Positions 1 through 41,081 of a stretch of DNA of 41,081 nt are shown here, piece after piece. Numbering within the stretch: position 1 is the first letter of the stretch; each line of letters starts with the position of its first letter. The translations under genes were made by a program, and so were the position numbers. Source of the stretch: a virus; IMG/VR virus record IMGVR_UViG_3300045988_078321; one strand, 5' to 3'. The notes beneath the pieces were generated by a model, which did not search any database, was not told where the DNA came from, and worked only from the letters and a program-made list of their open reading frames with translations.

Positions 1-55
1 TAAACCAATAAAAAACAAAAGTCATGAGTTTAGTTGCAACCAGACTGCAAAATTG
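1..55. repeat. Terminal direct repeat, exact copy of 41027..41081 (circular-assembly overlap)
   Basis: The first 55 nt (taaaccaataaaaaacaaaagtcatgag...caaaattg) are identical to the last 55 nt. The capsid ORF start is duplicated at the 3' end. Confidence 0.95.
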
Positions 56-14844: not shown

Positions 14845-14925
14845 ACAGTTATCGTAAAGACTACCATTAAGACAGTTATCGTAAAGACTACCATTAAGAC
14901 AGTTATCGTAAAGACTACCATCGAG
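14845..14925. repeat. 3 x 27-bp tandem direct repeat (ACAGTTATCGTAAAGACTACCATTAAG)
   Basis: Copies at 14845..14871 and 14872..14898 are identical. The copy at 14899..14925 differs only near its 3' end (CATCGAG). Intergenic, 17 nt upstream of the holin-candidate ATG. Confidence 0.95.
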
Positions 14926-14942
14926 ACAAAAGTAATAAAAAA

Positions 14943-15473
14943 ATGAAACTAAAAGAAGAAATGGAAAGAATTTTTAATTTCGAGCAGATGCGGATTATAG
15001 CGGTGTCTATAATTAGCCCAGTAATGGCGATTACAACCCCGATAAAAGGGTTTATTTGGGCGCTTGTAGTGATGTTTGCCTTCAATATCTTTGCGGGCAT
15101 GAGAGCCGACGGTGTAGCAATAAAGCACTGTAAAAATTTTTCATTCAAGAAATTCAAAAATGCGCTTATTGAGCTGCTTTTGTATCTCCTGATTGTTCAG
15201 GTGGTTTACATTGTAATGCGGAGTTGTGGAGATGAGGATGCCGCGTTGATTGTAATTAAGACGTTGACGTATGTGTTTATGTATGTGTACTTACAAAATG
15301 CCTTTCGCAATCTTATACTCGCATACCCCCAAAAAATTGCATTCCGGGTAGTATACCACATAATTCGATTTGAATTTACACGGGCTTTACCTTCGCATAT
15401 TCAACCTATAATTCAGCGATTAGAAGAAGAGTTCGGTAAAGATGAGAAACAGAAAAAAAAACAAAAAAAATGA
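14943..15473 (+). CDS. Holin candidate (multi-pass membrane protein)
   Basis: 176 aa with about 4 hydrophobic helices and a Lys-rich C-terminal tail (KDEKQKKKQKK). ATGA overlap with the endolysin gene. Confidence 0.55.
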   Translation: MKLKEEMERIFNFEQMRIIAVSIISPVMAITTPIKGFIWALVVMFAFNIFAGMRADGVAIKHCKNFSFKKFKNALIELLLYLLIVQVVYIVMRSCGDEDAALIVIKTLTYVFMYVYLQNAFRNLILAYPQKIAFRVVYHIIRFEFTRALPSHIQPIIQRLEEEFGKDEKQKKKQKK

Positions 15474-16076: not shown

Positions 16077-16688
16077 ATGAAAAAATATATCATAATATCA
16101 ATTATTGGATTGATTGTTGCCTCGTTGGTGACGATAGCAATTCAGCAAAACAGAATTTCAAACCTTAAAAAAGAGCGCGACAAATATCGCGAAAATACTG
16201 AAATTCTTTTGGGCCAAGTAGAGCAGTATGCGACAAAAGACAGTTTGCACGCCGCAACCGTTGGGGTTCTTCGATTGAAAATCGAGGAATACGAAAAATA
16301 TAGGTCTGCCGATGCCCAACTAATCGAAACTCTGAAAACTAAAAACAGAGAATTGCAGCAAGTAACCACGACGCAATTGCAGACGATTGATTCAATTCGG
16401 GCAACAGTGCAAGATAGTGTGTATATATATAACAACGACACCGTTGAATTGCAATGTATAGACGTACATAACCAGTGGTTCGATTTGCAAGGCTGTGTCT
16501 CTAATGGTGAATTTAATGGAGAATATGAAAGTAGAGAAAGCCTATTGATTGCAATGACTGTACAATACAAAAGATTCCTCGGATTTCTATGGAAGACAAA
16601 CAAGATAAAAAACAGGAAAGTTGACATAATTTCAAGAAACCCAAACACGAAAATTGTAGGATTTGAGGTTGTTGAAATCGAAAAATAA
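16077..16688 (+). CDS. Spanin-like lysis accessory protein (N-terminal TM plus coiled coil)
   Basis: 203 aa. N-terminal anchor IIISIIGLIVASLVTIAI, then a heptad-like segment rich in K, E and Q. It is the last gene of the lysis cassette and is followed by a terminator. Confidence 0.45.
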   Translation: MKKYIIISIIGLIVASLVTIAIQQNRISNLKKERDKYRENTEILLGQVEQYATKDSLHAATVGVLRLKIEEYEKYRSADAQLIETLKTKNRELQQVTTTQLQTIDSIRATVQDSVYIYNNDTVELQCIDVHNQWFDLQGCVSNGEFNGEYESRESLLIAMTVQYKRFLGFLWKTNKIKNRKVDIISRNPNTKIVGFEVVEIEK

Positions 16689-16689
16689 T

Positions 16690-16697
16690 TATATTTG
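16690..16697 (+). promoter_or_regulatory. Isolated -7-type box TATATTTG, 34 nt upstream of a terminator
   Basis: Exact TAnnTTTG directly after the stop codon. There is no well-spaced -33 TTTG. The same arrangement recurs at 18654..18661. Confidence 0.3.
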
Positions 16698-16730
16698 CAA
16701 GGAAATACGATTCTTGCTATCGACGAAGGA

Positions 16731-16759
16731 GGGTTAGCCGAACGGTTAGCCCTTTTTTT
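16731..16759 (+). terminator. Rho-independent terminator of the lysis operon
   Basis: GGGTTAGCC-gaac-GGTTAGCCC forms a 9-bp stem with G-U pairs, followed by TTTTTTT. Confidence 0.8.
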
Positions 16760-16933
16760 GATATAATGAATTTTAGGCCGTTTTTAGGCCCGTATTTGCA
16801 TTATCGCATTTTTATGGCATAATATACCATCGAGATAATAAAACGCCTTAAAAATGAAAATTCTCCAAAAATAACTCTTGAAGGGCACAAAAGAATTTTT
16901 TTTATCGAAAATCACAAAAAACAAAGAGAAAAT

Positions 16934-17000
16934 TTTGGTAATTAAAAAAGCAGTTGTATATTTGCATCGTAATCAAACAACCGACCGGGCGGGTTCCCGG
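16934..17000 (+). promoter_or_regulatory. Cassette 1: Bacteroidota-type promoter plus CCGGG leader hairpin
   Basis: TTTG (16934..16937), N19, TATATTTG (16957..16964). Hairpin CCGGG-cgggtt-CCCGG at 16985..17000, with 19 nt to the ATG at 17020. Confidence 0.8.
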
Positions 17001-17019
17001 GAAATAAAAAATAGAAAAT

Positions 17020-17331
17020 ATGAAAGCAAACGAAATCGTATGGAAGAGCGTATGTAATCGTTATTTCAGTGCAAACGCGAAAAGTGTTCAATACAAACAA
17101 TCGATGAAATGGGGTAGTGTATTCCCAACCACAAAGGCACAAGCAAAATATTTCATTGAAGAACGTGTGCAAATGGACGTCTTAAACAACAAAGACGTTG
17201 AGCGTGTAGAATATTTGCTGAACAAACACGGTTACACAGGAGAGTATAAATTCACAAAATCGCGTGAGTGGGTTCGTCTCGAAAATTACGAAGACCTGTA
17301 CAGCGCATTGAAAAAAGAATATAACATCTAA
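17020..17331 (+). CDS. Early small protein, unknown function
   Basis: 103-aa ORF starting 19 nt after the cassette-1 hairpin. Confidence 0.7.
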   Translation: MKANEIVWKSVCNRYFSANAKSVQYKQSMKWGSVFPTTKAQAKYFIEERVQMDVLNNKDVERVEYLLNKHGYTGEYKFTKSREWVRLENYEDLYSALKKEYNI

Positions 17332-17343
17332 ACTTACAAAACA

Positions 17344-17547
17344 ATGACACTAAATTTTAACGATTGGCTTATCAAAGTACAAAAATGCGAAGGAGATAAC
17401 AATGTTTTTGTCGCCGAATTTTACATACCAAAAACAGACGGCTCCAAATGTTTCCAGCAGTTCTATAAGTACATAGGGAACAGCAAGACAACACACAGTT
17501 TTATACTTGAAAGAGTGAAAAGAATAATTGAAACATTTTACCAATAA
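17344..17547 (+). CDS. Early small protein, unknown function
   Basis: 67-aa ORF with an ATG start, tightly spaced after the upstream gene and followed by a hairpin. Confidence 0.55.
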   Translation: MTLNFNDWLIKVQKCEGDNNVFVAEFYIPKTDGSKCFQQFYKYIGNSKTTHSFILERVKRIIETFYQ

Positions 17548-17552
17548 TCAAC

Positions 17553-17579
17553 GCCGGGGATATTCCCCGGCTCTTTATT
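17553..17579 (+). terminator. Hairpin GCCGGGGA-tat-TCCCCGGC plus a T-rich tail (weak terminator or attenuator)
   Basis: 8-bp perfect GC-rich stem followed by TCTTTATTA. The next ATG is at 17580. Confidence 0.45.
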
Positions 17580-18050
17580 ATGAGCGAAATAATAGCAGAC
17601 ATTAAAAGCATTTTATCTTTACCATTGGTCCCCAGGCAAAGAAAATACTATGAGGATTTAATCGCAGTTGCGAAGCCTGTAAAAATCTCCCGTGCGCACG
17701 ATGTTATCGATTCGTACATGCTTGATTTCATAAAGCACGTTGTAAAACCAGAGAAAAAAAGATGTTACAGGAATGCGCATCTTTTGTGCGAGGCATTTCC
17801 GGACATGGTAACATACTGTGAAGGAAGGGCGAATGTTCCAATTCCTATTGATCACGCATTTAACAAGGTCGGCGAGTATTACATCGATGTAACATTTGAG
17901 TTTGCATTGAGAGAAGACCCCAGCCAATACGATTACGCTATTTTTGGCGAATATACAGCAAATGAAATTTCAAAAATAGTGAGAAAAACGGGGTCTTATG
18001 GCGAATATTACAACTATCTGTGGAAAGACAAAAACCCCCTCGCGATTTAG
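17580..18050 (+). CDS. Small protein with a transglutaminase/papain-like Cys-His-Asp arrangement (tentative)
   Basis: 156 aa. RCYRNAHLLCEAF...YCEG...IDHAFNKVGEYYIDVT resembles the C...(V/Y)xG...HAW...D core of the transglutaminase-like fold. Confidence 0.35.
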   Translation: MSEIIADIKSILSLPLVPRQRKYYEDLIAVAKPVKISRAHDVIDSYMLDFIKHVVKPEKKRCYRNAHLLCEAFPDMVTYCEGRANVPIPIDHAFNKVGEYYIDVTFEFALREDPSQYDYAIFGEYTANEISKIVRKTGSYGEYYNYLWKDKNPLAI

Positions 18051-18176
18051 TCGGGAGGGGGCGGAAGGAGGTACGCAGTAACCGAGAGCGAAATGTGGTA
18101 ATGCGACACCACAAAAATAGTAAAAATTATTTGTTCACGAAAAAAACAGATAAAAATAAAAAAACAAAGAGAAAAT

Positions 18177-18243
18177 TTTGGTAATAAAAGAAATGGTTGT
18201 ATATTTGCATCATAATCAAATAACCGACCGGGCGGGTTCTCGG
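18177..18243 (+). promoter_or_regulatory. Cassette 2: promoter plus leader hairpin (stem has a G-U pair)
   Basis: TTTG (18177..18180), N19, TATATTTG (18200..18207). Hairpin CCGGG-cgggtt-CTCGG at 18228..18243, with 18 nt to the ATG at 18262. Confidence 0.8.
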
Positions 18244-18261
18244 AACAAAAATAATTCAAAT

Positions 18262-18642
18262 ATGAAAAAGTACATTTTAGTTAAGACACAAAAAGGTTCA
18301 AAGTATCTTTATCAAGTAAAAGACGAACAGGGTAATGTAGTGGCAAAAAGAACATCTACGCGCGATTACGTTGCTTGCACATCTAACGGTGAATTTTATT
18401 TCGGACGTGTAGACCTAATAGGTAAAGGAGACCACGGGAGACAACTGAATCAAATATACAAGTTGATAAACGACCCCAGAGGATTATATGAAGATATTGC
18501 GAGAATATTCGTACCATCGTATCGCTCTGTATGGAAAAAAGAAAATCCGTTTGATGAATGGTATAACTCGAAAGATATGGAGTACTGGAAAGACAGGAAA
18601 ACAAAACTCGAAAATATCGCTTATTTGCAGTCTGGGGAATAA
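18262..18642 (+). CDS. Early small protein, unknown function
   Basis: 126 aa from the ATG at 18262 (MKKYILVK...). The listed start at 18178 is a TTG that would run through the promoter and hairpin. Confidence 0.7.
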   Translation: MKKYILVKTQKGSKYLYQVKDEQGNVVAKRTSTRDYVACTSNGEFYFGRVDLIGKGDHGRQLNQIYKLINDPRGLYEDIARIFVPSYRSVWKKENPFDEWYNSKDMEYWKDRKTKLENIAYLQSGE

Positions 18643-18653
18643 CAAAAAACAAT

Positions 18654-18661
18654 TATATTTG
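18654..18661 (+). promoter_or_regulatory. Isolated -7-type box TATATTTG, 41 nt upstream of a terminator
   Basis: AATTATATTTG is shared with 16687..16697. It lies directly after a stop codon. Confidence 0.3.
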
Positions 18662-18701
18662 TACTGTATTTTTGTAGTTTTATCACATAGGTAAATAAGG
18701 A

Positions 18702-18730
18702 GGGTTGGCCGTAAGGTTAGCCCTTTTTTT
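18702..18730 (+). terminator. Rho-independent terminator
   Basis: GGGTTGGCC-gtaa-GGTTAGCCC followed by TTTTTTT. Confidence 0.8.
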
Positions 18731-18906
18731 GATATAATGAATTTTAGGCCGTTTTTAGGCCCGTATTTGCGTTCTTATATTTTTCTGGCATAACATACCA
18801 TTGAGATGATAAAACGCCTTAAAAACGAAAATTCGCCAAAAATAACTCTTAAAGGGCACAAAAGAAATTTTTTTATCGAAAATCACAAAAAAAATAAAGA
18901 GAAAAT

Positions 18907-18977
18907 TTTGGTAATTAAAAAAACGATTGTATATTTGCATCGTCAACATAAGACAAACAGACCGGGCTGATACCCGG
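18907..18977 (+). promoter_or_regulatory. Cassette 3: promoter plus leader hairpin (different loop)
   Basis: TTTG (18907..18910), N19, TATATTTG (18930..18937). Hairpin CCGGG-ctgata-CCCGG at 18962..18977, with 19 nt to the ATG at 18997. Confidence 0.8.
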
Positions 18978-18996
18978 GAAATAAAAAACAAAAGTT

Positions 18997-19245
18997 ATGA
19001 GCGCAGAAAAATATTACGAAGGTCTCGAATACACAACAACCGAAATTAACCGTAATTTCAAGATTAAGGTAAACGGAATGTTTGAGGGTAAAAAAATCAA
19101 TAAATTAGTCGGTGTTTATGGTCTTATTAATCTTGTAGGTATAGAGATGGCGAACAAACTTTTTCGCCGTGCATTTCGTAGTACAGACGATGCCCAGCAT
19201 TGTAAATTGCGCAGAGGATTGAAAATTTCGTTCTATTGCTATTAA
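18997..19245 (+). CDS. Early small protein, unknown function
   Basis: 82-aa ORF behind cassette 3. Confidence 0.65.
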   Translation: MSAEKYYEGLEYTTTEINRNFKIKVNGMFEGKKINKLVGVYGLINLVGIEMANKLFRRAFRSTDDAQHCKLRRGLKISFYCY

Positions 19246-19259
19246 AAATAGATTTTATT

Positions 19260-19320
19260 TTTGGTAATTAAAAAAGTAATTGTATATTTGCGTCATAAAA
19301 CCGACCGGGCGGGTTCCCGG
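19260..19320 (+). promoter_or_regulatory. Cassette 4: promoter plus leader hairpin
   Basis: TTTG (19260..19263), N19, TATATTTG (19283..19290). Hairpin CCGGG-cgggtt-CCCGG at 19305..19320, with 17 nt to the ATG at 19338. Confidence 0.8.
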
Positions 19321-19337
19321 AATAAAACTATAACAAA

Positions 19338-19664
19338 ATGGAAACACAAGATACATCTTTGATTAAGCCTGCAAGTTTAATGGCTATTCGCAGGTTTGTT
19401 GAAAATAAAATCATAACGGATTGCGAAGAGTACATTGAGCGTGATAAAATATTGCACGATGAGTTTTCAGAACCTGTTGAATGCGATGATGAAACCCTAT
19501 ATGTGGACGTAGAATGGGAGGGCTACAACGGAAGACGATGGACAAAAGGCAATTATTTTACACCGGAAGAATCAGATGGTGAAATTGTATTGATGTACAC
19601 AGTGAAAATATATGATGAGGACGAAATACAATGCGGAGAATTTAATGACAAAATATTCATCTAA
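19338..19664 (+). CDS. Highly acidic early small protein (anti-defence / DNA-mimic candidate)
   Basis: 108 aa. By my count about 28 D/E versus 11 K/R. It sits behind cassette 4 and directly upstream of an HTH gene. Confidence 0.7.
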   Translation: METQDTSLIKPASLMAIRRFVENKIITDCEEYIERDKILHDEFSEPVECDDETLYVDVEWEGYNGRRWTKGNYFTPEESDGEIVLMYTVKIYDEDEIQCGEFNDKIFI

Positions 19665-19677
19665 AAACAATATAGCT

Positions 19678-19908
19678 ATGAAATTGAGAGTAAATGAAGC
19701 AATTGCCCGTTCAGAGGCAAACGGAAAAAAGGTTTTCAAAAAAGACATCGCAGCACGTTTATTTGCCGGGGCGAGTGAAGCAGCCCAGCAAGTAAACATG
19801 ACGAATTTGTGTTCGGGCGTAACAAAAAGAATTTTGCCCGAATGGGTTGTGATTATTTGTGAAATGTGCGGTTGCTCCGCCGATTACCTTTTCGGGTTGG
19901 AGGATTGA
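19678..19908 (+). CDS. XRE/Cro-type helix-turn-helix transcriptional regulator
   Basis: KKDIAARLF...QQVNMTNLCSGVTKRILPEWVVIICEMCGCSADYLFGL is a typical HTH_3 pattern with the C-terminal DYLFG. The start is uncertain: in-frame ATGs at 19678, 19645 and 19612. Confidence 0.75.
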   Translation: MKLRVNEAIARSEANGKKVFKKDIAARLFAGASEAAQQVNMTNLCSGVTKRILPEWVVIICEMCGCSADYLFGLED

Positions 19909-19911
19909 GGA

Positions 19912-20097
19912 ATGAAAGCGGAAAAGAAAATAATCGCGGTTGTAAATGCCGCATTTTCTGAAAAATTCCAACGCCGTTTAATTGTCGTTTTATTAACGAT
20001 ATTTGGCGTTCTTGCGCTTATGATGGCGCGTTTCAATGGTGCGCATGTAGTAACATCGGCGGTGTGTTTTATTGCCGCGTTTTTGGTTAAAAAATAA
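19912..20097 (+). CDS. Small membrane protein
   Basis: 61 aa with two hydrophobic segments (LIVVLLTIFGVLALMM, VVTSAVCFIAAFLV). Confidence 0.5.
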   Translation: MKAEKKIIAVVNAAFSEKFQRRLIVVLLTIFGVLALMMARFNGAHVVTSAVCFIAAFLVKK

Positions 20098-20105
20098 ACA
20101 GTAAT

Positions 20106-21164
20106 ATGAGAGCGAAACGTAATGCGGTCAAAGATACCGCGAAGACATTGCAAAAAGTAGAGCCCAAAAAGAAAAAGGCATCTATAAAAGAAATTGTACC
20201 ACCTTTTATCCCTGTTGAAAATGAAGGTGCAACAGGAGCATTCGAAATTGCACCGGGAATGAGTGCCGAACAAATGAAGGCGTTATTCTTTGATGAAAAA
20301 ACATTGATAGAACCGCCGTATAAGGTGTGGCAGTTGAATAGTAGCACGGGGCGATATTACTACACATTCGAAGATAATGGCCCAGTCTTCTACCCTTCAG
20401 TAACAACGATTCTATCACAGACAATGCCGAAATCTGAATTTCTTATCAAATGGGTTGCGAGCATGGGGTATGATGAGGCAGAAAGGTATAAGGCAGAACG
20501 GGCGGCTTATGGAACATTTATGCACGCTCAATTTGAAAGCCTTTTGATAAACAGGCTTTACAATTTGGACGAACTGAAAGACAAGTTGAAAGAATACACA
20601 ATTCAACAGCGATTGCCGGACAATTTTATTCATTACTGCGATGACTTGAAAAAGGACATTTTGTCTTTTGCTCAATTTGTTGTTGATTACGATGTACAGC
20701 CGTTGGCTGTTGAAATCGCACTGGTACACCCAGACTTAAAATATGCCGGTATGATTGATTTGCCGTGCAGAATGAGGGCAAAAATAGGTAGCGATGAGCG
20801 TATAAATGCGATTGTCGATTTCAAGAGTGGGAGGAAGAATTTCTATGAGGACAACGAATTGCAACTTGCATTTTACAGAGAGTTGTGGAATTGGAATTTC
20901 CCGGAAACAGAGATAACGAGAATTTTCAATTTCAGCCCGAAAGATTGGCGGAAGAAACCAACGTACAACCTAAAAGAGCAGACCAAAAGCCCAAATATTG
21001 CAAAGATGCCTTATTTGCTCGAAATCGCAGCTATTAACGACGAAAAGGCCGAAAATACATTTACAGCTATTAGCGGGGTTATTTCTCTCGATGAGGTTAG
21101 CACCTTGCCCGCTTGTGTTACAACTCTTACATTGTCCGAAATCGTAAAAAACAAAACAAAATGA
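20106..21164 (+). CDS. PD-(D/E)XK family nuclease (RecB/Cas4-like exonuclease)
   Basis: YPSVTTIL...GTFMHAQFE...GMIDLPC...AIVDFKSGRK...LQLAFY fits the H/E ... D ... (D/E)xK ... Y motif order. Confidence 0.7.
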   Translation: MRAKRNAVKDTAKTLQKVEPKKKKASIKEIVPPFIPVENEGATGAFEIAPGMSAEQMKALFFDEKTLIEPPYKVWQLNSSTGRYYYTFEDNGPVFYPSVTTILSQTMPKSEFLIKWVASMGYDEAERYKAERAAYGTFMHAQFESLLINRLYNLDELKDKLKEYTIQQRLPDNFIHYCDDLKKDILSFAQFVVDYDVQPLAVEIALVHPDLKYAGMIDLPCRMRAKIGSDERINAIVDFKSGRKNFYEDNELQLAFYRELWNWNFPETEITRIFNFSPKDWRKKPTYNLKEQTKSPNIAKMPYLLEIAAINDEKAENTFTAISGVISLDEVSTLPACVTTLTLSEIVKNKTK

Positions 21165-21874
21165 AGGGAAGAATCGAAAGGCCCGAAGCACACAAGCCTC
21201 GGTTAGTTTTGCCGCGAGTCGGTAAAATAAGAATAGGCGTGAAGAACGCGAAAGGATACCCGCAAAGTCTCGACTATTTCATCGCAACGGGTAAGTATGC
21301 AGGATTGTTTTTACAGGCGTATGGTGATAAGCCGCAAATAATACAAATTGTCTTTCCGGACGATGACCCAGAAAAAGTATGTTGCGAGCGGTATGAGTAT
21401 CGAGACGATGAAGGGAATCTGGTAGCATATGGAGACGGTTGTAATTTCGATGTATGGAACCCCAAGACCAAAAGATACGAGTCGTTCAGCGCGAAAGATT
21501 ACCCTCAAATAATGCAGTCGATACAAAATCGATACCCTACGAAATTATCGCAAAAGACCGGCGATGGCTGGAGGGTTAGATTAACCCTAAATTTCATTAT
21601 ACCACTCGTTAGGGGTGTTGCGGGTATATGGACGTTTGAGACAAATGGAAACGCATCAACAATACCGCAAATTCGTGAGACATTCGATTGCATGTTGCTC
21701 GAAAGAGGATTCTGCAAAGGCATAATTTTCGACTTGTCTGTTCAATTTGCCGTATCCCAGAAACCCGGTGTAAATTCAAGATACCCCGTTGTATCGCTTA
21801 TTCCAAACGAAAGCGCGGACAATGTTCTGAAAGTAAAGAAGGCTTATGAGCCAATAATGGAGGTTAAAAAATGA
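21161..21874 (+). CDS. phiC31 gp3-like (RDF-like family) protein, recombination/replication module (tentative)
   Basis: 237 aa from the ATG at 21161, in an ATGA overlap. The N-terminal LPRVGKIRIGVKNAKGYPQSLDYF resembles the vG-x-IRlG...P-x-x-LD-x-F signature I recall for that family. Confidence 0.4.
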   Translation: MKGRIERPEAHKPRLVLPRVGKIRIGVKNAKGYPQSLDYFIATGKYAGLFLQAYGDKPQIIQIVFPDDDPEKVCCERYEYRDDEGNLVAYGDGCNFDVWNPKTKRYESFSAKDYPQIMQSIQNRYPTKLSQKTGDGWRVRLTLNFIIPLVRGVAGIWTFETNGNASTIPQIRETFDCMLLERGFCKGIIFDLSVQFAVSQKPGVNSRYPVVSLIPNESADNVLKVKKAYEPIMEVKK

Positions 21875-22665
21875 CTGTGCGTGATAGTAATTTTGTTACC
21901 ATTTTGGCCCCGATGGTAACAATCCTAAAATTAAAAGGGAATGAACTTTTGGTGTTTGCTCTTATTCATGGATTCAGCCAAGACGGCGAGAGTACTTTTA
22001 AGGGCTCTTTGAAATATTTGAATGAGTGGACAGGTTTGGACAAAACAACGATTCTTAGAATCTTGAAAAACCTGTGCGAAAAAGAGTATATAACAAAACA
22101 TGAAGGAAGCAAAAACGGGGTAAAAGTCTGTGAATATTCGTCTAATTATTGGGAGGTAATGGGGTGGTTGCAAAATACCACCACCCCCGGTTGCAAAATG
22201 CAACTACCCCGGTTGCAAAATACCACCACCCCCCTGGTTGCAAAATGCAACCCTATATATATATATAATAATATAGATAATAATATAGATAATAATATAG
22301 ATAATCCGATGGTTGAAACATCGTCTATTTTTAGTGCTGAAATGGTAGAAGAAAAAAAATTGAGGGGGACAACGGAGCCGCGAAAGTGTTTGTTCGTAAA
22401 TAGTCGTTTCTCCAAACTTGAGGATTTTTTGAAATGCTTCGATAAACCAGAGTATGAAGAAATAGACATGGTGTATTACTACCATGCGGTAGCAGATTGG
22501 AGCGCAAGTAAAGGAAGAATGCAGAAAGATTGGATAGCACAAACAAGGAATTTTGTTCGTTCCGATAGAGATAAAGGGAAATTACATCTCAAGCAGGAAT
22601 ATCAACAGAAGAAACAAAAAATAGATGTAGCAAGCGCTATTGAATACCTCGAAAATGAATTGTAA
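21871..22665 (+). CDS. Replication initiator / replisome organiser (winged-helix N-terminus)
   Basis: LLVFALIHGFSQDG...FKGSLKYLNEWTGLDKTTILRILKNLCEKEYI is wHTH-like. The gene carries iterons and an AT-rich tract internally. Confidence 0.6.
   Translation: MTVRDSNFVTILAPMVTILKLKGNELLVFALIHGFSQDGESTFKGSLKYLNEWTGLDKTTILRILKNLCEKEYITKHEGSKNGVKVCEYSSNYWEVMGWLQNTTTPGCKMQLPRLQNTTTPLVAKCNPIYIYNNIDNNIDNNIDNPMVETSSIFSAEMVEEKKLRGTTEPRKCLFVNSRFSKLEDFLKCFDKPEYEEIDMVYYYHAVADWSASKGRMQKDWIAQTRNFVRSDRDKGKLHLKQEYQQKKQKIDVASAIEYLENEL
22166..22253. repeat. Origin iterons: 4 x GGTTGCAAAAT(A/G)C, arranged as 2 x ~45 bp
   Basis: Iteron units start at 22166, 22189, 22211 and 22236. Confidence 0.9.
22254..22305. repeat. 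AT-rich tract with a (TA)n run and 3.25 x 12-bp repeat AATAATATAGAT (DNA-unwinding-element candidate)
   Basis: 12-mer copies at 22267, 22279 and 22291. Translated as NNIDNNIDNNID. Confidence 0.9.
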
Positions 22666-24362: not shown

Positions 24363-24815
24363 ATGGATATAAACCAAATAGAACGAGAATTTGCCGAGAA
24401 AATTGAAAAGGCATTGAGAAATAACGACTATAAAAAAGTAGACAATCTTATGCGGCAATTTGACCGAATCAAAAACACCCGGGAATGTGTGCCAGCGAAG
24501 AAAATAACTGACGAAATGACGCCGGAAGATAAAGAGCGATGCAACACTCTTTTGCGGGTAATTCCTGTATTGTCTGATATTATTGAGGGCACAGGAATTG
24601 ACTTATTGGAGATGCTGAAAAAATACGACGGCAGCGTGTCTCTTCCAATGCTTGAAATAATAAAACGAATCAATTACCTTTCAAAAAAGGTTAGAGAGAT
24701 TGTTGACAATGTTAAAAGCGAATCATTCGCAGAATCATTTGGGGATACATGCGATTATTTGAAAGATGTGATATTTGATTTTTTTGAAAAAGAACAAAAT
24801 GATACGAGTTTTTGA
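24363..24815 (+). CDS. Hypothetical protein
   Basis: 150-aa ORF whose start is 2 nt after the upstream stop. Confidence 0.65.
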   Translation: MDINQIEREFAEKIEKALRNNDYKKVDNLMRQFDRIKNTRECVPAKKITDEMTPEDKERCNTLLRVIPVLSDIIEGTGIDLLEMLKKYDGSVSLPMLEIIKRINYLSKKVREIVDNVKSESFAESFGDTCDYLKDVIFDFFEKEQNDTSF

Positions 24816-26127
24816 AGCGTTTGCAGGATATGGAAGCCAGTCTATGGGGCTCGAAAGGCTGAAACAAGACTATCCGCAGTTCGATTATGAGGTTGTAGGA
24901 ATTAGCGAGATTGACAAATACGCTGTAAAAGCGTACAACGCCACGCATGAGCCAACAGCCAATTATGGAGATATATGCCTCATAGATTGGGATAGCGTAC
25001 CCGATTTTGACTTGTTCACCTATTCTTTTCCATGCCAGGACATATCGAGTGCAGGCAGGCAAAGAGGACTTGAAGCCGGTAGTGGTACGAGAAGCAGCCT
25101 TTTATGGGAATGCAGAAAAGCAATAGAAACAAAACGTCCGAAATATCTGCTCATGGAGAACGTAAAGGCACTTGTAAACAAAAAGTTTATCAATCATTTT
25201 AACGATTGGTTGCTTTATTTGGATAGCCTGGGATATAGCAATTTTTGGCAAGTCCTTAATGCCAAAGACTACGGTGTTCCTCAAAACAGAGAGCGGGTTT
25301 TTGTCGTGTCTATACTTGGGAATAACGAGCAGTATAAATTCCCAAACACGTTTGAGCTTATAAAACGATTAAGTGACGTTTTGGAAGAGTGTGTAGATGA
25401 AAAATATTATTTGTCCGAAAAGTTTTATAATTGTATTTTATCGCATACAAACAGAAAGATTCAAGAAGGATGCGGGTTTAAGCCTCAATTTATTACAAGT
25501 AATGAAGCGCCTGGCACAATTACAACAAAATACGGGCAAAGGTCAACAGACCCATACATTATCCAAAACGGGAGAGGATATGTAGAAACAAAAGAATTTG
25601 AGTTATGCCCAACTATTACCAGCCACGGATTCGAACGAAATAATTTTGCTTTTGTATCATACACAAGAGATAAAAAAGGTAATGTAGTTGACAGGCATTT
25701 GAAAGATGTATCAAACACAGTGCACACATCGACAGGTAGCGGAGGTAATACCGATTGTTTTGTATTTGAAACAAAAATTAAACAGTTATGCAATATATTG
25801 AAAGAGGGTAATTATTCTAATCCGAAGAGAGGCAGAGTTTATTGCGTAGATGGTATTAGTCCTACGCTTGACACTATGGCAGGAGGTGGACGCGAGCAAA
25901 AAATATTATCTAAGTACAATCGTATCCGCAAACTTACACATCGTGAATGTTTCCGCTTAATGGGAGTATCTGAAACTGATATAGATAAAATACAATCGGC
26001 CGGTATAAGCAACAGACAGCAGTACAAGATGGCAGGAAATAGTATTGTTGTAGATGTATTGTATTTTATATTTAAGAATCTTTTTTTTGAAAGGCCAAAA
26101 ATATTTCAATTGAAATTATTTAAATAA
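24799..26127 (+). CDS. dcm: DNA (cytosine-5)-methyltransferase with an oversized variable region
   Basis: Motifs: FAGYGS (I), FPCQDIS (IV), ENV (VI), QNRERVF (VIII), RECFRLMG (IX), GNSIVV (X). 442 aa from the ATG at 24799. Confidence 0.92.
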   Translation: MIRVFEAFAGYGSQSMGLERLKQDYPQFDYEVVGISEIDKYAVKAYNATHEPTANYGDICLIDWDSVPDFDLFTYSFPCQDISSAGRQRGLEAGSGTRSSLLWECRKAIETKRPKYLLMENVKALVNKKFINHFNDWLLYLDSLGYSNFWQVLNAKDYGVPQNRERVFVVSILGNNEQYKFPNTFELIKRLSDVLEECVDEKYYLSEKFYNCILSHTNRKIQEGCGFKPQFITSNEAPGTITTKYGQRSTDPYIIQNGRGYVETKEFELCPTITSHGFERNNFAFVSYTRDKKGNVVDRHLKDVSNTVHTSTGSGGNTDCFVFETKIKQLCNILKEGNYSNPKRGRVYCVDGISPTLDTMAGGGREQKILSKYNRIRKLTHRECFRLMGVSETDIDKIQSAGISNRQQYKMAGNSIVVDVLYFIFKNLFFERPKIFQLKLFK

Positions 26128-26144
26128 AAAACAAAGAATAATCT

Positions 26145-26214
26145 TTTGTAATTAAAATAATAGTCTTATATTTGCATCGTCAATATAAGACAAACCGACC
26201 GGGCGGGTTCCCGG
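26145..26214 (+). promoter_or_regulatory. Cassette 5: promoter plus leader hairpin
   Basis: TTTG (26145..26148), N18, TATATTTG (26167..26174). Hairpin CCGGG-cgggtt-CCCGG at 26199..26214, with 18 nt to the ATG at 26233. Confidence 0.8.
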
Positions 26215-26232
26215 GAATAAAAATTATAAGAT

Positions 26233-26385
26233 ATGATTAAAAGAAAACAAATTAAGGTAAACCGAGAAAGAGCAATAACTATTGCTATGAATCACAATTG
26301 TGTAAGTAAAGAAATTGCACAAGGTTACACCGATTCAGAACTGAAGGAGGTTTTAAGACAATTAAAATTAAAACCGAATTTCTAA
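26233..26385 (+). CDS. Small protein (50 aa), not in the supplied ORF track
   Basis: The ATG sits at the cassette-typical spacing. Translation: MIKRKQIKVNRERAITIAMNHNCVSKEIAQGYTDSELKEVLRQLKLKPNF. Its TAA overlaps the next ATG (TAATG). Confidence 0.45.
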   Translation: MIKRKQIKVNRERAITIAMNHNCVSKEIAQGYTDSELKEVLRQLKLKPNF

Positions 26386-26573
26386 TGGAAAAGTTCGTTG
26401 ATGACACAGGAGCAACCAGACATGCAATGAGTTATGATGAACTTAAAAAATTGTATAAATTCATAGACAATTTTATTGCAGATTGCACGGTTGAGGAGGT
26501 AAAAGAATGTAGAGACGCATTTATAAAAATTGAGACGTTGATACATCAAAGAATGAGAATGAAAATAAAATAA
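26385..26573 (+). CDS. Small hypothetical protein
   Basis: 62-aa ORF whose ATG (26385..26387) shares one base with the TAA stop of the upstream small ORF (TAATG). Confidence 0.5.
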   Translation: MEKFVDDTGATRHAMSYDELKKLYKFIDNFIADCTVEEVKECRDAFIKIETLIHQRMRMKIK

Positions 26574-26582
26574 ATTAAGTAT

Positions 26583-26918
26583 ATGAGAGCGAATCAAACA
26601 TTAGATGCAAGGGTATATGTAGGTACCTACGCGAAGTATAACAACGGTAATATCGACGGCGCATGGATTAGTCTCAATAGTTGCGATAGTTACGAAGATT
26701 TTTTGAAAAAATGTGCAACTATACACCAAGACGAGGCCGACCCCGAATATATGATACAAGACTGCGAAAATATGCCGGATATGACTAAATTACCTATTCT
26801 ACTCGAGCACAAGACAGGGTCTATTCATTTTGTAGATGAAAGGCTTAGCGTTTGGAGTTATTTGAAAAAACATTACACCCGTTGGGCATACATCAAAGAC
26901 TTAATTCCGGAGGAGTGA
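26583..26918 (+). CDS. ArdA-like antirestriction protein (short form)
   Basis: VYVGTYAKYNNGNIDGAWISL...YEDF...DPEYMIQDCENMP parallels the ArdA N-terminal pattern (VYIANLGKYNEGELVGAWF...EYAIHDYE.LP in Tn916 Orf18, from memory). Only 111 aa. Confidence 0.55.
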   Translation: MRANQTLDARVYVGTYAKYNNGNIDGAWISLNSCDSYEDFLKKCATIHQDEADPEYMIQDCENMPDMTKLPILLEHKTGSIHFVDERLSVWSYLKKHYTRWAYIKDLIPEE

Positions 26919-26921
26919 GAG

Positions 26922-27221
26922 ATGGGAGAATCAATCAAGAATGACAGAAAAGACGGCAAGGTAATGATGGAGTTGTTGCCTTGGCCGGAGCTTGAAGAGA
27001 TTGCGAAAGTATATACTGCAGGAGCCAAAAAATACGGCCCTCACAACTGGGAGAATTTGCCAAACGGTTACGAGCGATACAAAGGCGCCATGCTACGGCA
27101 CCTTACCGAGGTGGAGAAAGGCAATGCCATAGACCAGGATACCGGCTGCCTCCATGCAGCACAAGTCGCATGGAATGCTATTGCTATGCTGCATTTCAAG
27201 ATGAACGAATACAAAGAATAG
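26922..27221 (+). CDS. DUF5664-like protein (dATP/dGTP diphosphohydrolase N-terminal-like domain)
   Basis: KNDRKDGKVMMELLPWPELEEIAKVYTAGAKKYGPHNWEN...AMLRHL...G...DQDTGCLHAAQVAWNAIAML fits the K-x-D-x-GK...GA-x-KYG-x-x-NW...RH...D-x-x-(S/T)G-x-x-H pattern. Confidence 0.5.
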   Translation: MGESIKNDRKDGKVMMELLPWPELEEIAKVYTAGAKKYGPHNWENLPNGYERYKGAMLRHLTEVEKGNAIDQDTGCLHAAQVAWNAIAMLHFKMNEYKE

Positions 27222-27225
27222 AATT

Positions 27226-27912
27226 ATGAGAAAAATCATTCAAGAGATAGAGGAATCGGTACGCAAAAACGGGAATGACCGGCAGCAAGGGCTGGCGATA
27301 TGGCTCGACTACCTTATTGACCTGTTCGATGTGAAATACATTATGGACGGCACGTTTGAAAAACACCTTGTCGAGAAATCCGAAAAGGATGAGAATCTGT
27401 ACAACGCTACTATCATGTGGTTAGAAATTGTTGCAAAGAAAATCGACGAGGGCGGTTGGATAGATGTGTTCGGTGAAATATACGAGGAGATGTATCAATC
27501 GAAGGGGAAATCTTCGATGCTCGGTCAGTTCTTTACGCCGAAAGGATTATGCGACCTTATGGCAAACATGAACGAGCCTACCAATGGAAAGATAGGCGAC
27601 CCGGCGTGTGGTTCTGGCCGGACGTTGCTCGCTGCATACGTCAAGAACAAAAAGGCGTACTACATAGGAGAGGACATAGACGGTATAAGTTGCAAGATGT
27701 CCGCGTTGAATCTTATGATTCACGGAGCACGCGGTCGTGTTGTCTGCCACGACACGCTTGCTAACCCGGTATACTTTAATTGGGGATATGAGATAAACGA
27801 GGTGCGTTACCCTTTTCCAGCCCCGTTTTATTCTCTTCGACTTATATCGAATGTAAAGCCAGACAAACCAAGAGAGATTGAAAAAAGAGTTGAACAACTG
27901 AAATTATTTTAG
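27226..27912 (+). CDS. Minimal N6-adenine-MTase-like protein (SAM-binding motifs; degenerate motif IV; no TRD)
   Basis: GQFFTPKGLCDLM (X), IGDPACGSGRTLL (I), GEDIDGISCKMSALNLMIHG (II/III) and LANPVYF in place of NPPY/F. Only about 45 aa follow motif IV. Confidence 0.55.
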   Translation: MRKIIQEIEESVRKNGNDRQQGLAIWLDYLIDLFDVKYIMDGTFEKHLVEKSEKDENLYNATIMWLEIVAKKIDEGGWIDVFGEIYEEMYQSKGKSSMLGQFFTPKGLCDLMANMNEPTNGKIGDPACGSGRTLLAAYVKNKKAYYIGEDIDGISCKMSALNLMIHGARGRVVCHDTLANPVYFNWGYEINEVRYPFPAPFYSLRLISNVKPDKPREIEKRVEQLKLF

Positions 27913-29182: not shown

Positions 29183-29200
29183 GCCGGGCGGGTTCCCGGC
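29183..29200 (+). promoter_or_regulatory. Leader hairpin copy 6 (GCCGGG-cgggtt-CCCGGC), with no recognisable promoter
   Basis: Same stem and loop as cassettes 1, 4 and 5, extended by one G-C pair. 18 nt lie between the core CCCGG arm (ends 29199) and the ATG at 29218. Confidence 0.75.
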
Positions 29201-29217
29201 AACTAAATAAAAACATT

Positions 29218-29832
29218 ATGAGCGAAAAAAAAGAAAACATGGTACAGGTACCGAGCGAAAAGGCTTTTGCTTTATCAAAAGTGAAAATGTTGAAAGACGA
29301 TGGTCTTGATGTGCATTATGAGGTCACCGAAACGGTTGGTAACGAGAGTTATGTGAACAAATATCACGTTGAAAGCGTGAAAGACATTCACCCAGATTTG
29401 CGAAATTGTTTCAACCGGTTGCGCCCTATAATGGTCAGAATCTTCAACATTACATCGTTTCTTTCGATGGTTGAGACGGAAGATTTCAAGGCTACAAAAT
29501 CGCAGCAAGAGAAGGCGAGAGAATTTGCCGATGAGATGCTTAAAAATATAGAGGTTCGCGGCATTTCGTACTCTGGGAAAGATGACAATGTTGGCGTTGT
29601 TCTTACCGGTCTTTTTACTGTTTCGAACAACCAAAAAACAGCCATAAATTCGCCCCGAATCAAATACAGTACTGAAACATTCGGTTTTGAAGAAGAGTTG
29701 GAAGACATCGCGGCAGACATCGAACGGGAGGTTTACGCGTTTCTTTTCAAGGGTAAAAAGGCGCAATTAGGATTATTCGGCGCCGATGGAGAGCCGGCCG
29801 AAAATTATGCTCTTGACCCTGAGAAACAGTAA
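29218..29832 (+). CDS. Hypothetical protein
   Basis: 204-aa ORF behind hairpin copy 6. Confidence 0.7.
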   Translation: MSEKKENMVQVPSEKAFALSKVKMLKDDGLDVHYEVTETVGNESYVNKYHVESVKDIHPDLRNCFNRLRPIMVRIFNITSFLSMVETEDFKATKSQQEKAREFADEMLKNIEVRGISYSGKDDNVGVVLTGLFTVSNNQKTAINSPRIKYSTETFGFEEELEDIAADIEREVYAFLFKGKKAQLGLFGADGEPAENYALDPEKQ

Positions 29833-41026: not shown

Positions 41027-41081
41027 TAAACCAATAAAAAACAAAAGTCATGAGTTTAGTTGCAACCAGACTGCAAAATTG
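41027..41081. repeat. Terminal direct repeat, exact copy of 1..55
   Basis: Identical 55-mer that includes the first 32 nt of the capsid ORF. Confidence 0.95.

What the first reader, a model, noticed from the sequence alone, without database searches (positions are those of the whole stretch)
18997..19908. Anti-CRISPR-like (acr-aca) operon architecture: strong promoters, small orphan genes, then an HTH regulator
Two small orphan genes sit directly upstream of a 76-aa XRE-type HTH gene (19678..19908). The orphans are 82 aa and 108 aa, and each has its own consensus promoter. The 108-aa protein is extremely acidic, with about 28 D/E versus 11 K/R by my count.

Small genes behind strong early promoters and followed by a conserved HTH (Aca) that represses the operon is the established signature used to find anti-CRISPR and other anti-defence loci. 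Acidic small proteins are often DNA mimics; Ocr, ArdA and AcrF2 are examples.

The same HTH is also the obvious candidate to bind the repeated cassettes. The anti-defence function itself is inference only.
Basis: inference. Interest (0 to 1): 0.65.

Follow-up and report, generated by a model that had tools for sequence, protein, structure and literature searches.

The report
Phage early genes with core regulator
This is the early-gene region of a lytic gut Bacteroidota phage, where repeated copies of a strong promoter plus an RNA hairpin drive small genes and a conserved DNA-binding regulator; in outline it resembles an anti-CRISPR locus, but none of its proteins matches a known anti-CRISPR component.

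Summary
The three ORFs are real, and the 108-aa protein has exactly 28 D/E against 11 K/R (pI 4.17), the most acidic protein in the genome. Both small genes sit behind perfect Bacteroidetes-type promoters (TTTG-N19-TAnnTTTG). These belong to a five-copy cassette that also carries a conserved 5'-UTR hairpin.

Three points in the finding fail. The 82-aa gene is not an orphan: it is phrog_32997 and occurs in 62 of 86 related loci. The HTH matches no Pfam, NCBIfam or PDB sequence, although its predicted fold is Cro/C-protein-like. The HTH is a core gene of one 40-48 kb phage clade, always followed by the exonuclease and replication genes, so it is not a mobile Aca.

The gene just upstream of the HTH is a strongly acidic protein in nearly every locus examined. 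In 82 of 85 loci it is a zinc-ribbon protein; orf108 is a rare replacement with no demonstrable homology to it.

The hairpin stems covary while the HTH stays 88-100% identical, so the hairpin acts as RNA structure rather than as the HTH operator.

A fifth cassette at 26145 drives an ArdA-like anti-restriction gene, so early anti-defence is plausible. Anti-CRISPR function has no support.

The best reading is a PeSL-like early-gene cassette system with a Cro/C-protein-like core regulator.

The parts
16726..16757 (+). Intrinsic terminator ending the late/lysis operon. It is the first element of the 207-nt repeat 16726-16932.
   Evidence: RNA fold gives -21.3 kcal/mol, z -4.7, followed by a U-run.
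16934..17000 (+). Cassette copy 1: promoter 16934-16964 and 5'-UTR hairpin 16985-17000. It drives orf103, orf67 and orf156.
18177..18243 (+). Cassette copy 2: promoter 18177-18207 and a hairpin with one mismatch. It drives orf126 (18262-18642).
   Evidence: orf126 occurs in 21 of 86 related loci.
18697..18728 (+). Second copy of the intrinsic terminator, inside the 207-nt repeat 18697-18903. It closes the orf126 unit.
   Evidence: RNA fold gives -19.1 kcal/mol, z -3.9.
18907..18977 (+). Cassette copy 3: promoter 18907-18937 and hairpin 18962-18977 (loop variant CTGATA). It drives orf82.
18997..19245 (+). orf82: a basic (pI 9.6), conserved early gene of unknown function, not an orphan.
   Evidence: phrog_32997 at E 3e-32; 13 phage records; 62 of 86 loci. 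In relatives it is the first gene after the first early promoter.
19260..19320 (+). Cassette copy 4: promoter 19260-19290 and hairpin 19305-19320, which ends 17 nt before the orf108 ATG.
19338..19664 (+). orf108: an extremely acidic, lineage-specific protein in the 'acidic slot' directly upstream of the HTH.
   Evidence: pI 4.17. Only three of the loci compared carry it (window, L006, L011). Only two other clusters exist in 1.8e9 representatives. AF2 pLDDT is 77, one helix plus four strands, with no fold match.
19678..19908 (+). 76-aa five-helix HTH regulator, a core gene of the clade.
   Evidence: AF2 pLDDT 96.9; Foldseek hits C.Csp231I, 434 Cro, P22 c2. Present in 37 cultured phages, 379 IMG/VR loci and all 86 loci compared. 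Recognition helix QQVNMT is conserved.
19912..20097 (+). 61-aa hydrophobic protein (likely membrane protein, judged from its sequence), conserved downstream of the HTH.
   Evidence: 63 loci
20106..21164 (+). PD-(D/E)XK exonuclease, next gene in the same operon.
   Evidence: phrog_298 at E 1e-35; PF12705 weak
21158..21874 (+). Gp3-like protein (PF18897), followed by a replication initiator at 21871-22665.
26145..26214 (+). Cassette copy 5: the same promoter and hairpin. It drives orf50, orf62, the ArdA-like gene, a MazZ-like gene and an N6-methyltransferase.
26583..26918 (+). ArdA N-domain anti-restriction protein. This is the only gene under a cassette that is recognisable as anti-defence.
   Evidence: PF07275 at 48.7 bits against a cut-off of 27; phrog_2059; weak hit to PDB 2w82 ArdA
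29184..29199 (+). Hairpin-only copy with no promoter, 19 nt before the gene starting at 29218.
   Evidence: The same arrangement occurs in BKO1-3.

Best explanation
The interval lies in the early-gene region of a complete, roughly 41-kb lytic Bacteroidota siphovirus related to Bacteroides phage BKO1-3, Parabacteroides phage PDS1 and, more distantly, B40-8.

Five copies of a roughly 90-nt regulatory cassette each start a transcription unit. A cassette consists of a perfect host-type -33/-7 promoter, a short GC hairpin in the 5' UTR and an A-rich leader. The copies also act as recombination points at which early genes are gained, lost and reordered.

The copy at 18907 drives orf82, a conserved early gene. 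The copy at 19260 drives the conserved operon: acidic protein, HTH, membrane protein, exonuclease, Gp3-like protein, replication initiator.

The HTH is a Cro/C-protein-like core regulator of this clade. It most likely feeds back on the early promoters to switch early transcription off as replication begins. Its operator is more likely in promoter DNA than in the hairpin; one candidate is the imperfect palindrome TTTTGGTAA|TTAAAAAA over the -33 box.

orf108 fills a slot that almost always holds a strongly acidic small protein. It most likely inhibits a host nucleic-acid-binding protein by charge mimicry.

Shown: the ORFs, promoters, cassettes, hairpin covariation, synteny, fold of the HTH and acidity of the slot.
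Inferred: timing of expression, repression by the HTH and any inhibitor function of orf108.
For: Genome and relatives: the window ends are identical, so the genome is circular and complete, and all genes are on one strand. Relatives are collinear.

Promoters and cassettes.

Hairpins:
- The hairpin is the minimum-energy structure of every leader.
- In 83 of 85 loci there is a hairpin of at least 5 bp in the 34 nt before the slot gene, against 24% of random 34-mers. Three different stem sequences occur.
- One pair in type A covaries through three Watson-Crick types; four of five pairs in type B covary.

Shuffling: the only indel between the window and its 94%-identical relative L006 (18252-18878) is bounded by cassette copies. 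A 207-nt terminator-plus-promoter duplication is present. Early genes have patchy distributions.

HTH:
- Fold.
- Core status and restriction to phage-sized contigs.
- No other transcription factor is annotated in collinear BKO1-3.

Acidic slot: pI is 4.05-4.65 for the zinc-ribbon family, for orf108 and for an unrelated 132-aa protein in L100.

Early anti-defence precedent:
- An identical cassette drives an ArdA-like gene.
- In the related B. fragilis phage Bf12P1, the earliest-expressed module is five small genes of unknown function, transcribed from two Bacteroides-type promoters (PMC13139388).
Against: No expression or binding data exist for this phage.

The palindrome over the -33 box is AT-rich and low-complexity. 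As a 15-mer it is not enriched beyond the cassettes themselves, so it may simply be part of the promoter.

The hairpin's function is unknown.

orf108 has no detectable relative of known function, and its AF2 model has only moderate confidence (pLDDT 77).

The early module of Bf12P1 could not be mapped gene for gene onto this region, because the supplementary tables were not available.
Confidence: 0.55

Rival explanations
1. Aca-like anti-defence regulon. The HTH works like Aca1 or Aca2: it represses the cassette promoters on DNA and also binds the 5'-UTR hairpins as RNA to block translation. It would coordinate several adjacent anti-defence operons, with orf82, orf108, the ArdA-like unit and others as the payload.
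For: Published Aca regulons have this shape: a promoter inverted repeat, 5'-UTR hairpins, several neighbouring operons, and hairpins between genes inside operons (PMC13551039).

The same features occur here:
- Five cassette copies, plus hairpin-only copies between genes.
- One cassette drives an ArdA-like gene.
- The HTH is the only regulator seen.
- The type A hairpin is largely invariant (CGA-CNGGG-CG..-CCCNG), which would suit sequence-specific recognition.
Against: - Type B hairpin stems differ at 3-4 of 5 pairs while the HTH is 88-100% identical.
- B40-8-like phages keep the recognition helix but have no hairpin.
- The HTH matches no solved Aca by sequence, and none appears in the top 50 fold hits.
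- The HTH sits in fixed synteny with replication genes and is absent from bacterial chromosomes and other mobile elements.
- orf82 is conserved from gut Bacteroides phages to a marine Croceibacter phage, which is unlike arms-race cargo.
Confidence: 0.17
2. True anti-CRISPR operon. orf82, orf108 or both inhibit a host CRISPR-Cas system, and the HTH is their Aca.
For: Support comes only from the architecture and the acidity of orf108. In phage Bf12P1, an early gene was reported to resemble AcrIF9 by structure modelling; the authors present this as speculation (PMC13139388).
Against: - No sequence or fold similarity to any solved Acr.
- orf82 is conserved across hosts of different classes.
- In 82 of 85 loci the slot upstream of the HTH holds one conserved family.
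- Nothing links the locus to CRISPR in particular rather than to any other host target.
Confidence: 0.06
3. The acidic protein belongs functionally to the recombination module. It would inhibit a host nuclease in the manner of lambda Gam or T7 gp5.9, protecting phage DNA ends for the exonuclease/annealase system encoded just downstream. Under this reading the HTH regulates something other than the cassettes, for example later promoters or the origin.
For: An acidic small protein precedes a recombination exonuclease in three separate contexts:
- The window (orf108 ... PD-(D/E)XK exonuclease).
- B40-8 and Barc2635 (X ... Erf).
- An unrelated phage-like contig, where the 40%-identical orf108 homologue P0122 heads an operon ending in a YqaJ exonuclease.

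That Gam and gp5.9 are acidic DNA mimics encoded beside recombination genes is established knowledge, not something tested here.
Against: - No fold or sequence match to Gam or gp5.9; none appears in the listed fold hits (top 50) and no PDB sequence matches.
- The synteny evidence rests on few independent cases.
- The HTH and a membrane protein lie between the acidic gene and the exonuclease.
Confidence: 0.12
4. The acidic protein is a partner or antagonist of the HTH itself. As a DNA mimic it would bind the HTH's DNA-binding face, as Prx does with ComR or SinI with SinR, and so tune the early switch.
For: The acidic gene and the HTH are adjacent in nearly every locus. Foldseek hits for the HTH include ComR-Prx and Rep-Ant complexes.
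Against: The HTH stays about 92% identical between genomes whose acidic-slot genes are unrelated (orf108 versus the zinc-ribbon family). A specific protein-protein interface is therefore unlikely.
Confidence: 0.06

Closest known systems
Aca-regulated anti-defence operons (Aca1, Aca2; PMC13551039, PMC6765145)
   Same: A small HTH dimer-type regulator is encoded in the same operon as small early genes behind a strong promoter. Several neighbouring operons share one regulatory motif. Structured hairpins occur in 5' UTRs and between genes.
   Different: - The HTH belongs to no described Aca family. It is a core gene restricted to one phage clade and is followed by replication genes.
- No validated or recognisable Acr is present.
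- There is no clear GC-containing inverted repeat over the promoter.
- Hairpin stems covary independently of the HTH.
PeSL cassettes of T4-type phages (PMC2839356, PMC4122927)
   Same: Multi-copy composite motifs of an early promoter plus a stem-loop flank small variable ORFs. Indels and replacements between close relatives break at the cassettes.
   Different: - A different phage group (siphovirus of Bacteroidota) and a different promoter type (-33/-7).
- The stem-loop lies downstream of the promoter in the 5' UTR, at a fixed distance from the start codon, and has no U-run. It is therefore not a terminator.
- A separate true terminator sits upstream of two of the copies.
Cro and restriction-modification controller (C) proteins, e.g. 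C.Csp231I and 434 Cro
   Same: These are the best structural matches to the HTH (TM 0.46-0.65). They are small five-helix proteins that set the timing of a short genetic programme by feeding back on their own promoter.
   Different: There is no sequence-profile match. Operator and dimerisation are untested. No restriction-modification or lysogeny module is attached.
Acidic DNA-mimic inhibitors (T7 Ocr, ArdA, lambda Gam, T7 gp5.9)
   Same: orf108 is small, made early, and carries a net charge of about -17.
   Different: There is no fold or sequence similarity to any of them. The genome's real ArdA-type protein is a different gene (26583-26918).
Early gene module of Bacteroides phage Bf12P1 (PMC13139388)
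   Same: It is a related B. fragilis siphovirus, 89% identical to Barc2635, which carries the same HTH family. Its earliest transcripts come from a cluster of five small unknown genes behind two Bacteroides-type promoters.
   Different: Gene-for-gene correspondence could not be established. B40-8/Barc2635-type promoters lack the GC hairpin.

Membership tests
acr-aca operon | The regulator belongs to a described Aca family | tested here: not met
   phmmer and a 37-sequence profile against all PDB chains gave no relevant hit at E<=10; from memory, not checked here, that set should include the solved Aca1 and Aca2 structures. No Aca appears in the top 50 Foldseek hits. No Pfam or NCBIfam hit. Caveat: no dedicated Aca HMM library was available, so families without solved structures were not tested.
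acr-aca operon | The upstream gene is a known or validated anti-CRISPR | tested here: not met
   orf82 and orf108 have no PDB sequence hit. The orf108 model has no PDB or BFVD fold match; the best TM is 0.58, to an uncharacterised Pandoravirus protein. No structure was predicted for orf82. No Acr HMM database was available.
acr-aca operon | An inverted-repeat operator overlaps the operon promoter | tested here: inconclusive
   The only inverted repeat in promoter DNA is an imperfect AT palindrome, TTTTGGTAATTA/TAATTAAAAAAA, over the -33 box. It is not enriched beyond the cassettes. The GC inverted repeat lies downstream of the -7 box, in the transcribed leader.
acr-aca operon | The regulator is shared among diverse mobile elements, with variable cargo upstream | tested here: not met
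   The HTH is found only on 40-48 kb phage contigs or fragments of them. There are no chromosomal copies in the 185,579 species-representative genomes. In 82 of 85 loci the gene directly upstream is one conserved family.
acr-aca operon | A structured RNA motif lies in the 5' UTR (Aca1, Aca2, Aca10, Aca12) | tested here: met
   A covarying hairpin of at least 5 bp sits at a fixed distance from the start codon in 83 of 85 loci. Whether the HTH binds it is untested.
acr-aca operon | The regulator binds and represses the operon promoter | not testable with these tools
   This needs EMSA and reporter assays.
XRE/Cro/lambda-repressor-like HTH | Five-helix bundle with a helix-turn-helix | tested here: met
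   AF2 pLDDT 96.9 with five helices. Foldseek probability is 0.85-1.0 for C.Csp231I, 434 Cro, P22 c2 and SinR.
XRE/Cro/lambda-repressor-like HTH | Match to a curated sequence profile such as HTH_3 or HTH_31 | tested here: not met
   No Pfam family at E<=0.1 and no NCBIfam family at E<=1. Precomputed Pfam is '-' for all 120 listed homologues.
PeSL-type mobile regulatory cassette | Multi-copy composite of an early promoter plus a stem-loop flanking variable small ORFs | tested here: met
   Five copies in the window and 1-7 promoter matches per related locus or locus fragment. The flanked genes have patchy distributions.
PeSL-type mobile regulatory cassette | Indel or replacement breakpoints between close relatives fall at the cassettes | tested here: met
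   Window versus L006: the only indel (18252-18878) is bounded by cassette copies. The window lineage carries a type A cassette with orf108 where other genomes carry a type B cassette with gene X.
PeSL-type mobile regulatory cassette | The stem-loop acts as a terminator within the composite motif | tested here: not met
   The hairpin lies downstream of the promoter and is followed by an A-rich leader, not a U-run. Separate true terminators lie at 16726-16757 and 18697-18728.
ArdA / Ocr-type DNA-mimic anti-restriction protein (applied to orf108) | Sequence or fold similarity to ArdA or Ocr | tested here: not met
   No Pfam or PHROG hit and no fold match. By contrast, 26583-26918 does match ArdA PF07275.
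ArdA / Ocr-type DNA-mimic anti-restriction protein (applied to orf108) | Strong net negative charge | tested here: met
   28 D/E against 11 K/R, pI 4.17, the most acidic of 58 proteins. This feature is necessary but far from sufficient.

The most novel reading that the evidence does not exclude
The Pfam-less HTH is the founding member of a new Aca-like family in Bacteroidota phages. It would control a genome-wide early anti-defence regulon of five or more units, including an ArdA-like gene, through both promoter DNA and the conserved 5'-UTR hairpins. The position-conserved, sequence-variable acidic slot beside it would encode interchangeable DNA-mimic inhibitors of host defence nucleases.
Probability: 0.15. 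Interest if true: 0.75.

Novelty: new variant of a known kind. Interest (0 to 1): 0.45.

Why it matters
Almost nothing is known about how lytic phages of gut Bacteroidota time their gene expression or evade host defences.

This locus offers three testable handles. All are conserved across hundreds of gut phage genomes, and cultured relatives exist in which to test them (PDS1, BKO1-3, C1_85S2P, AS73P1).
- A portable, very strong promoter-plus-leader cassette. It could also be useful as a genetic part for Bacteroides.
- A covarying 5'-UTR hairpin in a phylum whose mRNAs lack Shine-Dalgarno sequences.
- A core regulator paired with a slot that almost always encodes a highly acidic protein.

If the regulator proves to work like an Aca, guilt-by-association searches for anti-defence genes would extend to Bacteroidota phages.

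Tried and rejected
- Rfam: nothing at gathering thresholds for the whole window, and only chance-level hits at E<=1 in 16600-20200. No tRNAs.
- PADLOC: no hit for any of the eight early proteins.
- orf108 homologues: tblastn against 50,697 phage records found nothing. The word-indexed search found one cluster. An exhaustive HMMER search found one more real homologue (P0122, 40% identity), plus a short motif hit to a Gram-positive surface-repeat protein that I regard as spurious.
- Is orf108 a diverged copy of the conserved zinc-ribbon protein X? hhalign gave 0.2% probability, and 2.4% with a broader alignment. hmmsearch gave 1-2 bits. Only two short collinear motifs are shared (FVENKIITD ~ LLKNKVIED; GNYFTPEE ~ GDYYTPNS). 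Homology is therefore unproven and is not claimed.
- Hairpin as the HTH operator: rejected as the primary reading, because of stem covariation and the hairpin's absence in B40-8-like phages.
- Terminator-like hairpin at 20057-20077, which would have closed a three-gene operon after the membrane protein: not better than shuffled sequence (z -0.19). Relatives have overlapping genes at this point.
- Mapping the Bf12P1 early genes 16-20 onto this region: not possible, because no supplementary text is held and the genome is not in the collections.
- Caveat on method: the hairpin sets were collected with a pattern that required perfect stems, so their '% paired' values hold by construction. One search repeats the test without that bias.
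Full report
**What the window is.** The first and last 55 nt are identical. The window is therefore a complete, circularly permuted genome of about 41,026 bp, with essentially all long ORFs on the + strand. The region around the finding matches, at about 70% nucleotide identity, cultured lytic siphoviruses of Bacteroidota: Bacteroides phages BKO1-3 and C1_85S2P, Parabacteroides phages PDS1 and PD491P1, Alistipes phage AS73P1 and Elizabethkingia phage TCUEAP2. These genomes are collinear. The order is a lysis module ending in a DUF6549 gene, an intergenic promoter region, a run of small genes, an 80-aa HTH, a small membrane protein, an exonuclease, a Gp3-like protein and a replication initiator.

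**Checking the observation.** The three ORFs are at the stated coordinates.
- orf108 has 28 D/E and 11 K/R, pI 4.17. It is the most acidic of 58 predicted proteins, at net -0.157 per residue against -0.087 for the next.
- Both small genes have their own promoter, but of the Bacteroidetes kind: TTTG, 19 nt, TAnnTTTG. The window has 8 exact matches against 1.5 expected. As sigma-70 promoters they are mediocre.
- The 76-aa start at 19678 agrees with the N-termini of cultured-phage homologues.

Three details are wrong or unsupported.
- orf82 is not an orphan. It is phrog_32997 at E 3e-32. It occurs in 13 phage records, including Croceibacter phage P2559S, and in 62 of 86 related loci.
- The HTH matches no Pfam, NCBIfam or PDB sequence, even as a 37-sequence profile. 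Its AF2 model (pLDDT 96.9) is nevertheless a five-helix bundle. The best structural matches are the restriction-modification controller protein C.Csp231I, 434 Cro, P22 c2 and SinR.
- The HTH does not close an operon. The membrane protein, exonuclease (phrog_298), Gp3-like protein (PF18897) and replication initiator follow with gaps of a few nucleotides or overlaps. The one terminator-like hairpin in between is no better than shuffled sequence.

**The cassettes.** The promoters belong to a repeat family with five full copies, starting at 16934, 18177, 18907, 19260 and 26145. Each copy has an A-rich upstream stretch, TTTTGGTAATTAAAA over the -33 box and TATATTTG at -7. About 19 nt further on comes the hairpin CCGGG-N6-CCCGG. 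There are 6 hairpin matches in the window against 0.09 expected. An A-rich leader of about 17-21 nt then runs to the ATG.

Hairpin-only copies lie before the genes at 29218 and, in a variant form, 17580. The hairpin is the minimum-energy structure of every leader. Two copies are preceded by a 207-nt duplication that carries a strong intrinsic terminator (16726-16757 and 18697-18728; z -4.7 and -3.9). The region therefore splits into separate units:
- orf103-orf67-orf156
- orf126, followed by a terminator
- orf82
- orf108-HTH-membrane protein-exonuclease and onward

**Comparative evidence.** I collected 80 IMG/VR loci (of 379 that encode the HTH), 16 loci from species-representative genomes, and the cultured relatives.

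*Gene distribution.* HTH 86 of 86 loci, exonuclease 80, Gp3-like 78, orf156 68, orf82 62, orf126 21. orf103, orf67 and orf108 occur only in three of the loci compared: the window, L006 and L011.

*Restriction to the clade.* All genome-collection hits lie on 40-48 kb contigs, or fragments, binned into MAGs of unrelated taxa. They are phage genomes, not chromosomal copies. The same holds for the 120 listed protein-database homologues. The HTH is thus a core gene of one phage clade.

*Cassette-bounded rearrangement.* Against the 94%-identical L006, the only indel (18252-18878: orf126, terminator and duplicated segment) is bounded by cassette copies. Gene order also differs from that of relatives, where the orf82 homologue is the first early gene. 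This behaviour matches that described for PeSL promoter/stem-loop cassettes in T4-type phages (PMC2839356, PMC4122927).

**The hairpin is an RNA feature.** Two classes exist.
- Type A: CGA-C[C/G/U]GGG-CGKKUW-CCC[G/C/A]G, about 130 copies. It varies at one pair, through three Watson-Crick combinations and never singly.
- Type B: sits 7 nt before the gene upstream of the HTH. It keeps a GGGRAUA loop while the stem is CGCAC/GUGCG, CCGGG/CCCGG or CCCGG/CCGGG.

Those sets were selected for perfect stems, so I repeated the test without that bias. In 83 of 85 loci the 34 nt before the gene fold into a hairpin of at least 5 bp at a fixed distance from the ATG, against 24% of random 34-mers.

In these same loci the HTH is 88-100% identical. 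The recognition helix (QQVNMT) is conserved even in B40-8 and Barc2635, whose promoters have no such hairpin. The hairpin is therefore an RNA-level element. Its role is untested; mRNA stability, processing or control of translation are all possible. It is not the obvious operator of the HTH. The only inverted repeat in promoter DNA is the imperfect AT-rich palindrome over the -33 box, which is a weak candidate. No Rfam family matches.

**The acidic slot.** In 82 of 85 loci the gene directly upstream of the HTH is a 131-147-aa protein, here called X. It has pI 4.05-4.65 and a C-terminal CPxCGG...CxxCG zinc ribbon, and it is phrog_33979 in B40-8. The window lineage instead has orf108, behind a type A rather than a type B leader, so the whole promoter-leader-gene module was exchanged. 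One distant relative (L100) has a third, unrelated acidic protein with pI 4.18.

Homology between orf108 and X is not demonstrable: hhalign gives 0.2-2.4% and HMM scores are 1-2 bits, with only two short collinear motifs. orf108 has one 90% relative and one 40% relative among 1.8 billion representatives. The 40% relative heads an early operon in an unrelated phage-like contig that also ends in a recombination exonuclease. The orf108 model (pLDDT 77; one long helix and four strands) has no PDB or viral fold match.

Position and charge are thus conserved while sequence is not. That pattern fits an inhibitor acting by charge mimicry, but the target is unknown.

**Bearing on the acr-aca reading.**

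*In favour:*
- The shape resembles recently described Aca regulons, which have several operons, 5'-UTR hairpins, and hairpins between genes (PMC13551039).
- The fifth cassette drives orf50, orf62, an ArdA N-domain protein (PF07275, 48.7 bits), a MazZ-like domain and an N6-methyltransferase, directly after a C5-methyltransferase. At least one cassette unit therefore carries a recognisable anti-restriction gene.
- In the related phage Bf12P1 the earliest transcripts are five small unknown genes (PMC13139388).

*Against:*
- There is no similarity to any Acr or Aca.
- The regulator is a clade-bound core gene in an operon with replication functions.
- orf82 is broadly conserved.
- The slot next to the HTH is mostly one conserved family.
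- Nothing points to CRISPR in particular.

**Verdict.** This is an early-gene region organised by mobile promoter-plus-hairpin cassettes, with a Cro/C-protein-like core regulator and an adjacent acidic-protein slot. An anti-defence role for some cassette-driven genes is plausible. An anti-CRISPR role is unsupported.

Noticed in passing
window 24775-27912: An anti-restriction island sits under an identical cassette (26145-26214). It comprises a C5-methyltransferase (PF00145), orf50, orf62, an ArdA N-domain protein at 26583-26918 (PF07275, phrog_2059), a MazZ-like dATP/dGTP diphosphohydrolase N-domain at 26922-27221 (PF18909) and an N6-methyltransferase at 27226-27912 (PF02384).
   Followed up: partly
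window 1-55 and 41027-41081: The two ends are identical over 55 nt. The window is therefore a circularly closed assembly of a complete genome of about 41,026 bp.
   Followed up: no
window 14845-14928: Three tandem copies of a 27-nt unit (ACAGTTATCGTAAAGACTACCATTAAG; two perfect, one 93%) lie in an intergenic gap. A hairpin (TAGGGCATTCAGCCCTA) precedes them and the gene at 14943 follows. Function unknown.
   Followed up: no
window 16726-16932 and 18697-18903: A 207-nt duplication at 90% identity carries a strong intrinsic terminator and the upstream part of the cassette. It looks like the footprint of the insertion of an early-gene unit.
   Followed up: yes
window 17553-17571 and 29184-29199: GC hairpins without a promoter lie just before the start codons at 17580 and 29218. 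The second is conserved at the same place in BKO1-3 (record position about 415).
   Followed up: partly
L002 9105-9215 (BKO1-3); L001 8893-8952: Iteron-like direct repeats of 22-30 nt lie between the Gp3-like gene and the replication initiator. They are a likely replication origin.
   Followed up: no
L091-L106 (genome-contig hits): Whole phage genomes of this clade (40-48 kb contigs) are binned into MAGs labelled Propionibacterium, Alphaproteobacteria, Clostridia, Acutalibacteraceae and others. This is binning contamination in public MAGs.
   Followed up: no
L001 5494-6060; L004 4347-4967: The GenBank start codons of the acidic zinc-ribbon gene in C1_85S2P and PDS1 lie upstream of the gene's own promoter and hairpin. 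The likely true starts are L001 5626 and L004 4533. The product name 'ribosomal large subunit pseudouridine synthase B', given to the orf82 homologue in BKO1-3 and to the DUF6549 gene in PDS1, looks like an annotation artefact.
   Followed up: partly
L007 1916-2257; L008 3-344: The only distant homologue of orf108 (P0122, 40% identity, also acidic) is the first gene of an early operon on an unrelated phage-like contig. It lies next to a divergently transcribed gene and upstream of a GerE-type HTH and a YqaJ exonuclease.
   Followed up: partly
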